A DNA stretch of 64,000 nucleotides from IMG/VR virus record IMGVR_UViG_2703718822_000010. One strand, 5' to 3'. Shown in pieces: positions 46,251-46,391 of this stretch. The notes beneath the pieces are model-generated. The model saw only the letters and a list, made by a program, of their open reading frames with translations. It was not told the origin of the DNA and did not search any database. This stretch comes from a virus (lineage: Duplodnaviria > Heunggongvirae > Uroviricota > Caudoviricetes). Position numbers and translations under genes: made by a program. Within the stretch, counting starts at the first letter, position 1; every line of letters starts with the position of its first letter.

Positions 46251-46391
46251 ATGTCGCAAAAATCGCTTATCACCGTCACAATTTGTATGACGGTTATCTT
46301 CACTATCTGGATGTTGCACGGTTCGCTGTGTGAGTTCCGGCTGAATTTGTGGGGAGCGGAGTTTGCGGCGTTCTTACAGTGTAAGCAGTAG
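46251..46391 (+). CDS. Hok-family (HokA-like) type I toxin, small ORF not in the supplied track
   Basis: 46 aa MSQKSLITVTICMTVIFTIWMLHGSLCEFRLNLWGAEFAAFLQCKQ; transmembrane segment then SLCEFR and EFAAF, the Hok signature; AAAGGA Shine-Dalgarno 10 nt upstream. Confidence 0.55.
   Translation: MSQKSLITVTICMTVIFTIWMLHGSLCEFRLNLWGAEFAAFLQCKQ

What the first reader, a model, noticed from the sequence alone, without database searches (positions are those of the whole stretch)
46251..46391. Unlisted Hok-like small toxin ORF between lom and the adhesin gene
A 46-codon ORF absent from the supplied track (below its size cutoff) encodes a transmembrane segment followed by SLCEFR and EFAAF, the Hok/Gef signature, with a plausible Shine-Dalgarno. 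It lies in a 720-bp non-coding gap containing a GC-rich stem (ACGGGGAC...GTCCCCGT near 46396-46420) that could belong to hok-type mRNA folding elements. No sok-like antisense partner was identified by eye.
Basis: partly seen in the sequence, partly recalled or inferred. Interest (0 to 1): 0.6.

Follow-up and report, generated by a model that had tools for sequence, protein, structure and literature searches.

The report
Second Hok toxin gene in Stx phage
The small ORF is a real Hok-family membrane-toxin gene with hok-type mRNA folding signals and a likely antisense RNA partner, but it is already annotated and catalogued in public databases, so it is a correct yet ordinary finding.

Summary
ORF 46251-46391 (+) encodes a 46-aa peptide that passes Pfam HOK_GEF (33.2 bits, cutoff 22). 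RefSeq annotates it as 'Hok/Gef family protein' (WP_000078907.1). The identical peptide is entry 72_1589 in a 2025-26 Hok catalogue, where it was cloned for toxicity assays; it is not among the three of 45 peptides reported non-toxic.

It lies in a ~390-bp cassette (46068-46459) that has its own promoter-like site. The putative mRNA leader matches Rfam sok below threshold (36.4 bits against 59). The transcript's 5' end pairs with its 3' end (tac/fbi) in all 12 homologues. After 3' trimming the 5' end is predicted to re-pair with an internal box and free the Shine-Dalgarno site.

A Sok-like antisense RNA (~46208 to 46151, minus strand) is predicted at the position homologous to sokW. No canonical in-frame mok exists.

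The characterised hokW-sokW system is a different locus of the same window (60486-60876, minus strand). The lom-adjacent copy is also present in phages 933W and Sp5, and I found no study of its RNA control or biological role. Novelty: already known. Interest: low.

The parts
46068..46096 (+). Putative hok promoter: -35 TTGCCC (46068-46073), 17-nt spacer, -10 TAAATT (46091-46096). It lies directly after the lom terminator (46043-46061 plus a T run).
   Evidence: Read from the sequence. The same spacing holds in diverged copies with TTGCCG/TTGAAA and TAGATT/TAGAAT. It scores 8 of 12, below the scanner's 9-of-12 limit, so one search did not list it. Inferred, not shown.
46103..46459 (+). Putative full-length hok-type mRNA (~357 nt)
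   Evidence: The Rfam sok model aligns from 46103, and in 6 homologues it starts at the same GGGTGCC. Homology to other phages ends just after GGCACCCGTT(T). The MFE fold closes the 5' end on the 3' end.
46103..46117 (+). tac-like 5' element (GGGUGCC 46103-46109; UCGGCU 46112-46117)
   Evidence: It pairs with 46450-46456 and 46441-46446 in the MFE and consensus folds. All 12 homologues show 13-17 closing pairs. In the truncated RNA it re-pairs with 46151-46161.
46151..46161 (+). ucb-like box GGAAAGGCCCC, the alternative partner of the 5' end after 3' trimming. On the minus strand it is also the 3' side of the Sok-like hairpin plus the UUUCC tail.
   Evidence: Invariant in all 12 sequences. Truncated-RNA folds pair nt 1-11 with nt 50-59 in 4 of 5 homologues.
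46151..46208 (-). Predicted Sok-like antisense RNA (~56-58 nt): an 18-nt single-stranded 5' tail, a GC-rich hairpin and UUUCC
   Evidence: The position is homologous to the annotated sokW of 933W. The same tail-plus-hairpin fold (-21 to -28 kcal/mol) appears in 12 of 12 homologues. There are no expression data, and the U tract is short.
46216..46245 (-). Putative sok promoter: -35 TTGACT (46245->46240), 18-nt spacer, -10 TAACCT (46221->46216)
   Evidence: The -10 is invariant in all copies and identical to the one in the hokW/sokW locus. The -35 varies as TTGACT, TTGCCT or TTGCTC with 17-18 nt spacing. Its conservation is confounded by the mRNA-structure role of the same bases.
46183..46228 (+). 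Predicted Sok-target hairpin of the truncated mRNA: arms 46183-46194 and 46217-46228, loop CUUAAGCAA 46202-46210 containing a YUNR motif
   Evidence: Truncated-RNA MFE folds. The loop is complementary to the 5' end of the predicted Sok RNA. In silico only.
46220..46251 (+). SD-sequestering hairpin of the full-length mRNA: UAGCGC (46220-46225) pairs with GCGCUA (46246-46251), and CUCU (46228-46231) pairs with GGAG (46238-46241). The SD is AAGGAG 46236-46241.
   Evidence: Consensus fold, 94-99% of cells paired, with one-sided compatible changes.
46251..46391 (+). hok-family toxin ORF, 46 aa (the finding)
   Evidence: Pfam HOK_GEF 33.2 bits against a cutoff of 22. RefSeq WP_000078907.1 'Hok/Gef family protein'. 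Identical to 72_1589, cloned in plasmid LRP157 for toxicity assays. dN/dS about 0.2-0.4.
46362..46369 (+). UUUGCGGC inside the EFAAF codons, pairing with the start-codon region GUCGCAAA (46253-46260)
   Evidence: Consensus fold helix 10. The last 31 nt of the CDS are 84-100% identical even where the TM-coding part is only 61% identical.
46401..46422 (+). It is the likely stop for 3' exonucleolytic trimming that would define the truncated, active mRNA.
   Evidence: 9 pairs, 99% of cells paired, and 2 pairs with compensatory changes in 4 sequences each. The role as a trimming stop is inferred from the R1 hok paradigm.
46425..46456 (+). 3' inhibitory region. 46425-46437 pairs with leader 46202-46214, which masks the Sok-target loop. 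46441-46446 and 46450-46456 form the fbi-like complement of the 5' end.
   Evidence: Consensus fold helices 1, 2 and 7. Helix 7 has 3 pairs with changes on both sides.

Best explanation
The ORF is the toxin gene of a self-contained hok/sok-type type I toxin-antitoxin cassette (about 46068-46459). The cassette is inserted as a moron just downstream of lom in a 933W-like Stx-converting prophage. It is a second hok locus, separate from the phage's characterised hokW-sokW locus at 60.5-60.9 kb.

Proposed mechanism, following the R1 hok paradigm:
1. A weak promoter makes a ~357-nt mRNA that is translationally inert. Its 5' end (tac) is clamped to its 3' end (fbi). A second long-range helix masks the antisense target. 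The Shine-Dalgarno site and the AUG are each buried in helices.
2. Slow 3' trimming back to the GC-rich hairpin (46401-46422) removes the inhibitory tail.
3. The 5' end then switches to the internal box GGAAAGGCCCC. This refolds the leader into a hairpin that presents a YUNR loop and loosens the SD.
4. A short-lived antisense RNA (~46208 to 46151), made from a constitutive promoter inside the leader, binds that loop with its free 5' tail and neutralises the mRNA. In R1 this step works through RNase III cleavage of the duplex.
5. If the antisense RNA disappears, for example on loss of the prophage or shut-off of host transcription, the 46-aa peptide is made. It inserts into the inner membrane and depolarises or kills the cell.

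Unlike canonical loci, there is no in-frame mok leader frame. The antisense RNA must therefore act through decay or structure, or through a short non-conserved leader ORF.

Shown here: Hok family membership, the cassette boundaries and the conserved, covarying RNA structure. Reported elsewhere: toxicity of the identical peptide. Inferred: transcription, 3' processing, the existence of the antisense RNA, and the biological role.
For: Toxin:
- Pfam HOK_GEF is above the gathering score, and RefSeq annotates the ORF as Hok/Gef.
- The identical peptide, 72_1589, was cloned as LRP157. The text states that only 19_179, 60_1482 and 69_1540 of the 45 tested were non-toxic.
- dN/dS is 0.16-0.40 among informative allele pairs.

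RNA:
- Rfam sok matches the full model length at 46103-46264 (36.4 bits, E 1.9e-6). It also matches in 6 homologues at 31-46.5 bits, each starting at the same 5' end.
- The 5'-3' closure appears in 12 of 12 homologues.
- The consensus structure has 97.3% of cells paired against 36-44% for slid controls, 11 pairs changed on both sides against 1-3, and 0 of 500 shuffles reaching the observed values.
- The tac-to-ucb switch occurs in 4 of 5 truncated folds.

Sok:
- Its position is homologous to the annotated sokW.
- The -10 TAACCT is the same as in the hokW locus.
- The tail-plus-hairpin architecture is conserved in 12 of 12 homologues.

Cassette and mobility:
- Homology starts at the promoter and ends right after fbi.
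- The same module lies after gene D in P2-like Xuanwuvirus phages, and in Salmonella and E. albertii.
Against: - There are no transcription, processing or translation data for this locus. Literature searches found none.
- The Rfam score is below the curated threshold (36.4 against 59).
- No mok frame exists. The hok frame upstream is closed by TAG 46212 and TAA 46233. Leader ORFs vary from 8 to 79 codons in different frames among the homologues.
- The predicted Sok terminator has only UUU followed by CC.
- The bases that form the putative sok promoter also have a structural role in the mRNA, so their conservation is not independent evidence.
- The promoter scan found no site at its stringency.
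- The covariation rests on about five lineages, and the tested structure was derived from the same alignment.
Confidence: 0.8

Rival explanations
1. The toxin gene is intact but has no antisense antitoxin. Expression would be held in check only by the self-inhibitory mRNA fold and a weak promoter, and the Sok-like features would be leftovers of ancestry.
For: The terminator U tract is weak (UUUCC) in all copies. There is no mok whose translation Sok could block. The promoter bases are also constrained by mRNA structure. No sigma-70 site was found at scan stringency.
Against: The -35/-10 spacing of 17-18 nt is maintained through indels. The 5'-tail-plus-hairpin architecture is kept in 12 of 12 homologues. 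The most variable part of the leader is exactly the tail and target-loop region, as expected for a specificity determinant. The homologous promoter in hokW-sokW is functional (PMC8621323).
Confidence: 0.13
2. The locus is a decaying, non-functional hok remnant, like several E. coli K-12 chromosomal hok loci, carried passively by the prophage.
For: It lacks mok. One copy (Stx2_8243) has a frameshift. The leader is sub-threshold for Rfam. Many phage records leave it unannotated.
Against: The ORF is intact in 11 of 12 lineage copies with dN/dS about 0.2-0.4. The RNA helices are kept by compensatory changes. The module is found in 198 phage records and in 1673 of 5426 E. coli genomes. The identical peptide is reported toxic.
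Confidence: 0.06
3. The ORF is a chance open frame in a structured non-coding spacer, for example a lom 3' UTR or terminator region.
For: It is small, and the region is highly structured RNA.
Against: Pfam E = 4e-8. The reading frame is conserved across 54-100% identical alleles under purifying selection. The lom terminator lies upstream, at 46043-46061.
Confidence: 0.01

Closest known systems
hok/mok/sok of plasmid R1 (parB), the paradigm type I toxin-antitoxin system
   Same: Both have a small Hok-family membrane toxin. Both mRNAs have 5' tac / 3' fbi closure, a 3' hairpin ahead of fbi, an alternative tac-ucb pairing after 3' trimming, and an antisense gene inside the leader with a free 5' tail and a hairpin. 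The tool results are; the description of the R1 mechanism comes from established literature and is my own knowledge.
   Different: This locus has no in-frame mok reading frame. The peptide is shorter (46 aa against 52). The leader scores only 36 bits on the Rfam sok model. It is phage-borne rather than plasmid-borne.
hokW-mokW-sokW of phages 933W and Sp5 (Takada et al. 2021, PMC8621323)
   Same: It is carried by the same phages and belongs to the same toxin family. It has the same -10 (TAACCT) for the antisense promoter and the same overall mRNA layout.
   Different: It is a different locus, at 60486-60876 (-) in this window, with a 51-aa HokD/RelF-like toxin. It has a 70-codon in-frame mokW in 933W and scores 111.5 bits on Rfam sok. 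The target and tail sequences are unrelated: the predicted SokW duplex with this leader is -38 kcal/mol against -119 for the cognate pair. hokW-sokW has been tested experimentally and the lom-adjacent locus has not.
Hok cluster 72 in the Hok catalogue of Escalera-Maurer et al. (bioRxiv 10.1101/2025.08.07.668861)
   Same: The peptide is identical to 72_1589. The P88/Salmonella allele corresponds to 72_1621. Both are listed in the table of peptides selected for toxicity assays, and a plasmid (LRP157, LRP137) is listed for each.
   Different: That study analysed coding sequences only and states that it did not define Mok, Sok or mRNA ends. The RNA anatomy given here is additional.
Chromosomal hokA-hokE loci of E. 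coli K-12
   Same: Same protein family. The best NCBIfam match is HokA.
   Different: The score of 38 bits is far below the HokA equivalog cutoff of 89, so this is not a HokA orthologue. The K-12 loci carry in-frame mok genes (mokB, mokC; my own knowledge of the K-12 annotation).

Membership tests
Hok/Gef toxin protein family (Pfam PF01848) | Match to the family HMM at or above the curated gathering score | tested here: met
   33.2 bits against a cutoff of 22, E = 4e-8, residues 8-44 on profile positions 6-42 of 42.
Hok/Gef toxin protein family (Pfam PF01848) | Peptide of about 50 aa with one N-terminal hydrophobic helix and the conserved C..T...LCE...E positions | tested here: met
   46 aa. 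The 17-residue hydropathy mean reaches 2.3 over residues 5-22. C12, T14, L26, C27, E28 and E37 correspond to the catalogue's conserved C16, T18, L30, C31, E32 and E41 (the correspondence was read directly from the sequence).
Hok/Gef toxin protein family (Pfam PF01848) | Toxic to E. coli when over-expressed | not testable with these tools
   Reported for the identical peptide 72_1589 (LRP157): 42 of 45 were toxic, and it is not among the three named exceptions. This is a preprint, and I could not view the figure.
HokA equivalog (NCBIfam NF007290) | Score at or above the equivalog cutoff | tested here: not met
   38.4 bits against a cutoff of 89. It is not a HokA orthologue.
Canonical hok/mok/sok type I TA locus | Leader homologous to the hok mRNA leader / Sok region (Rfam RF01794) at the gathering score | tested here: inconclusive
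   36.4 bits, below the threshold of 59, but the match covers model positions 1-157 with local E 1.9e-6. Six homologues score 31-46.5 bits over the full model from the same 5' end.
Canonical hok/mok/sok type I TA locus | Long-range pairing of the mRNA 5' end (tac) with the 3' end (fbi) | tested here: met
   GGGUGCC 46103-46109 pairs with GGCACCC 46450-46456, and UCGGCU pairs with AGCCGA. This holds in 12 of 12 homologues, with 96-99% of cells paired. In silico only.
Canonical hok/mok/sok type I TA locus | Alternative pairing of tac with an internal box (ucb) once the 3' end is removed, refolding the leader | tested here: met
   Nt 1-11 pair with nt 50-59 (46151-46161) in 4 of 5 truncated folds, and the SD hairpin is lost. 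In silico only.
Canonical hok/mok/sok type I TA locus | Antisense sok gene (promoter, 5' tail, terminator hairpin) inside the leader | tested here: inconclusive
   TTGACT, 18 nt, TAACCT, then a tail and a hairpin, conserved in 12 of 12 homologues and homologous in position to sokW. The U tract is only UUU, there are no expression data, and the scan at default stringency found nothing.
Canonical hok/mok/sok type I TA locus | mok reading frame starting in the Sok-complementary region and running in frame into hok | tested here: not met
   In-frame stops TAG 46212 and TAA 46233 lie upstream of the hok ATG. The mok-homologous frame has no ATG, GTG or TTG. Leader ORFs are not conserved in length, frame or end point in the 12 homologues.
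Canonical hok/mok/sok type I TA locus | Antitoxin activity of the antisense RNA; post-segregational killing | not testable with these tools
   Needs genetics. None was found in the literature for this locus.

The most novel reading that the evidence does not exclude
The lom-adjacent cassette may represent a mok-less branch of the hok/sok family. In it the antisense RNA would control the toxin without translational coupling, purely through mRNA decay or refolding. It may also be a functional second killer system in 933W and Sp5-type Stx phages, one that contributes to lysis timing, prophage retention or exclusion of other phages. If so, it could partly mask the phenotype of hokW-sokW deletions, which was only a two-fold drop in phage release (PMC8621323).
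Probability: 0.35. Interest if true: 0.4.

Novelty: already known. Interest (0 to 1): 0.2.

Why it matters
For annotation it matters little, because the gene is already called by PGAP and listed in a Hok catalogue.

It has some practical value for phage biology. The reference Stx phages 933W and VT2-Sakai/Sp5 carry two unrelated hok loci, and only hokW-sokW has been studied. Deletion phenotypes and models of Hok function in prophage induction should take the second copy into account.

For the RNA field, this subfamily is a natural test of whether hok regulation needs mok. It retains the tac/fbi/ucb switch but has no mok frame.

Tried and rejected
1. Rfam at gathering threshold found no hit at the locus. 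Only a permissive local search showed the sub-threshold sok match.
An alignment of six alleles worked, but it gave only 6 loci, three of them probably contaminant contigs.
3. I first assumed mok would be an out-of-frame overlapping ORF and found none. The 933W annotation showed that mok is an in-frame extension, so I repeated the test on that basis. The result was still negative.
4. I considered that this ORF might be the published HokW. I rejected that: HokW is 51 aa and maps to the 60.7-kb locus.
5. I considered HokA orthology and rejected it.
6. The default promoter scan found nothing. The promoters proposed here are weaker matches supported only by conservation of position.
7. Literature searches for transcript evidence of a Sok RNA at this site in EHEC found nothing specific.
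9. I did not use structure prediction or the large protein searches, because the family assignment was already unambiguous.

Full report
**1. The observation**

The window has an ATG-initiated ORF of 46 codons at 46251-46391 (+). It encodes MSQKSLITVTICMTVIFTIWMLHGSLCEFRLNLWGAEFAAFLQCKQ. It lies in the 723-bp gap between an Ail/Lom gene (45285-46019) and a YadA-like gene (46743-47954). AAGGAG (46236-46241) precedes the ATG by 9 nt. All the descriptive elements of the finding are therefore correct, with a small coordinate shift for the stem.

**2. Is it Hok?**

Yes.
- The peptide passes Pfam HOK_GEF (33.2 bits, gathering score 22, E = 4e-8).
- It is not an orthologue of a named K-12 Hok. Its best NCBIfam match is HokA at 38 bits, against a cutoff of 89.
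- RefSeq/PGAP annotates the identical ORF as 'Hok/Gef family protein' (WP_000078907.1), in the same lom - hok - YadA-like context.
- Phage records label it 'small toxic polypeptide', 'host toxic membrane protein' or 'MokW-like host killing' (a PHROG-style label on the same 141-nt ORF), or leave it unannotated.
- Alleles from other phages and species differ mostly at synonymous sites (dN/dS 0.16-0.40). The one length change among intact copies is in frame. So it evolves as a protein-coding gene.

**3. Already in the literature**

A recent catalogue of Hok toxins (bioRxiv 10.1101/2025.08.07.668861) lists the identical peptide as 72_1589. It is a member of a 'high-abundance' 60%-identity cluster and was cloned as plasmid LRP157 for arabinose-induced toxicity assays. 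The text states that 42 of 45 tested homologues were toxic and names the three exceptions, none of which is 72_1589. Fozo et al. (PMC2887945) had already counted 12-14 Hok/Gef genes in O157:H7 genomes. The gene is therefore known, and 'unlisted' only reflects the first stage's ORF size cutoff.

**4. Not the published hokW-sokW**

The experimentally characterised prophage system hokW-sokW of Sp5 encodes a 51-aa toxin (PMC8621323). In this window that system is a different locus, at 60486-60876 on the minus strand. It is the only Rfam sok hit at gathering threshold (111.5 bits). It is homologous to the region annotated mokW/hokW/sokW in phage 933W. Phages 933W and VT2-Sakai (Sp5) also carry the lom-adjacent copy at 97.6% identity. 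In the 933W GenBank record (AF125520) the only feature under the match is L0129, 'hypothetical protein'. The hokW-sokW paper does not mention a second hok.

**5. Anatomy of the cassette**

Alignment with copies from Stx phages, P2-like Xuanwuvirus phages, Salmonella enterica, S. diarizonae and E. albertii shows where homology begins and ends. It begins at a promoter-like pair: TTGCCC (46068-46073), 17 nt, TAAATT (46091-46096). The variants TTGCCG/TTGAAA and TAGATT/TAGAAT occur at the same spacing. It ends immediately after GGCACCCGTT(T), at about 46459. In the P2-like phages the module sits after gene D, in an unrelated context, so it behaves as a mobile cassette.

The Rfam sok model, which describes the hok mRNA leader, aligns over its full length to 46103-46264. 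The score of 36.4 bits is below the gathering score of 59, with a local E of 1.9e-6. It does the same in six homologues (31-46.5 bits), each time starting at the same GGGTGCC.

**6. mRNA folding**

*Full-length RNA.* The MFE fold of 46103-46459 clamps the 5' end to the 3' end. GGGUGCC (46103-46109) pairs with GGCACCC (46450-46456), and UCGGCU (46112-46117) pairs with AGCCGA (46441-46446). All 12 homologues do the same, with 13-17 closing pairs. The RNAalifold consensus adds four more elements:
- a second long-range helix, 46202-46214 with 46425-46437;
- a hairpin that buries the SD (CUCU with GGAG) and the A of the AUG (46220-46251);
- a helix between the start region GUCGCAAA (46253-46260) and UUUGCGGC (46362-46369), which lies inside the EFAAF codons;
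- the GC-rich 3' hairpin (46401-46422).

*Controls.* On this structure 97.3% of cells form standard pairs, against 36-44% when the partners are slid by 1-3 columns. Eleven pairs show changes on both sides, against 1-3 in the slid controls, and no shuffle out of 500 reaches the observed values. The 3' hairpin and the second long-range helix carry the clearest compensatory changes, each seen in four sequences. Two caveats apply: the structure was derived from the same alignment, and only about five independent lineages contribute.

*Conservation pattern.* The structural constraint explains an otherwise odd pattern. In phages phi367 and Stx2-86 the leader and trailer are 96-99% identical to the window, while the TM-coding part is only 61-62% identical.

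*Truncated RNA.* When the last ~35 nt are removed, cutting just after the 3' hairpin, the 5' end re-pairs with the invariant box GGAAAGGCCCC (46151-46161) in 4 of 5 homologues. A new hairpin forms from arms 46183-46194 and 46217-46228, with loop CUUAAGCAA containing a YUNR motif. The SD hairpin is lost. This reproduces, in silico, the tac/fbi to tac/ucb switch known for hok mRNA of plasmid R1; the R1 mechanism is cited from established literature.

**7. The antisense partner**

In 933W, sokW is annotated on the opposite strand, and its 5' end overlaps the mok start. At the homologous place here, the minus strand reads TTGACT (46245->46240), 18 nt, TAACCT (46221->46216). The -10 is identical to that of the hokW locus and invariant in all copies. 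The -35 varies (TTGACT, TTGCCT, TTGCTC) with 17-18 nt spacing.

An RNA starting near G46208 would have an 18-nt free 5' tail complementary to the predicted target loop. It would then form a stable hairpin (-26.5 kcal/mol) and end in UUUCC at about 46151. The same architecture is found in 12 of 12 homologues. The tail and loop region is the most variable part of the leader, as expected for a specificity determinant. SokW is not predicted to cross-react (-38 against -119 kcal/mol).

There are weak points. The U tract is short. The promoter bases are also structurally constrained in the mRNA. No expression data exist.

**8. What is missing**

In 933W, mokW is an in-frame 19-codon N-terminal extension of hokW that starts inside the Sok-complementary region. 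Here the hok frame upstream of the ATG is closed by TAG (46212) and TAA (46233). The frame homologous to mok has no start codon. ORFs starting at the conserved ATG 46147 or GTG 46149 range from 8 to 79 codons, with different frames and end points among the homologues.

A canonical mok is therefore absent. I file the ORF as a Hok-family toxin and the locus as hok/sok-like but mok-less, not as a canonical three-gene hok/mok/sok system.

**9. Most likely function and mechanism**

The locus is most likely a type I toxin-antitoxin cassette carried as a moron next to lom. Its stable, self-inhibited mRNA would be activated by 3' trimming and neutralised by a short antisense RNA. The toxin would be made when the antisense RNA decays.

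The biological role is inference only. Candidates are prophage retention, help with lysis as shown for hokW-sokW (PMC8621323), or exclusion of other phages as reported for R1 hok/sok.

Rival readings are a Sok-less, structure-only control (about 0.13), a decaying remnant (about 0.06) and a chance ORF (about 0.01).

**10. Verdict**

The gene is already annotated and catalogued, and the identical peptide has been assayed for toxicity. Novelty is 'already known' and interest is low (0.2).

Two points go beyond what I found in annotation or the literature:
- the reference Stx phages carry two distinct hok loci, of which only one has been studied;
- this subfamily keeps the hok RNA switch while lacking mok.

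Noticed in passing
window 60486-60876 (-); Hok ORF 60707-60552 (-): This is a second, canonical hok/sok locus (Rfam sok 111.5 bits), homologous to mokW/hokW/sokW of phage 933W. In this window the mokW start codon ATG reads ATA, so the annotated mok start is lost. The 51-aa Hok also has G in place of R in the CEV(R/G)IRT motif.
   Followed up: partly
window 46460-47954: Homology to other Stx phages stops at about 46460. An AT-rich stretch and a YadA-like adhesin gene (46743-47954) replace the 402-nt hypothetical ORF found there in 933W-type phages. Only 19 of 5426 complete E. coli genomes carry the whole 723-bp gap.
   Followed up: partly
L004 (phage phi367) and L005 (Stx2-converting phage 86), compared with window 46103-46459: There is an allele swap confined to the coding part. 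The leader is 96-97% and the trailer 96-99% identical to the window, but the TM-coding segment is only 61-62% identical (peptide MPQKTIIVSILCITILMIVWMIHNSHCEFRLNIMWSQFAAFLQCKQ). This suggests recombination or diversifying change of the toxin inside conserved RNA control regions.
   Followed up: partly
L009 (Stx2a-converting phage Stx2_8243), hok ORF: An extra G frameshifts the C-terminal part of the Hok ORF (…NLWGSGVCGVLTV). This is an apparently decayed copy among otherwise intact ones.
   Followed up: no
L006 (Xuanwuvirus P88_4B11) and L007 (phage 520873): The same hok cassette, about 81% identical, occurs in P2-like temperate phages downstream of gene D. It has therefore moved between unrelated phage families.
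   Followed up: partly
L010, L011, L013: Contigs labelled Xanthomonas pisi (857 nt), a Planococcaceae MAG and Vagococcus sp. carry near-identical enterobacterial hok cassettes. These are most likely contamination or mis-binning in public assemblies.
   Followed up: no
L015 1009-1195 (-): A strong Rfam STnc540 sRNA hit (185.7 bits) lies about 100 nt downstream of the S. diarizonae hok copy.
   Followed up: no
window 46400-46423 (-): Read on the minus strand, the 3' hairpin followed by CGGTTTTCCT scores as an intrinsic-terminator-like site. It could stop antisense read-through from the downstream AT-rich region.
   Followed up: no
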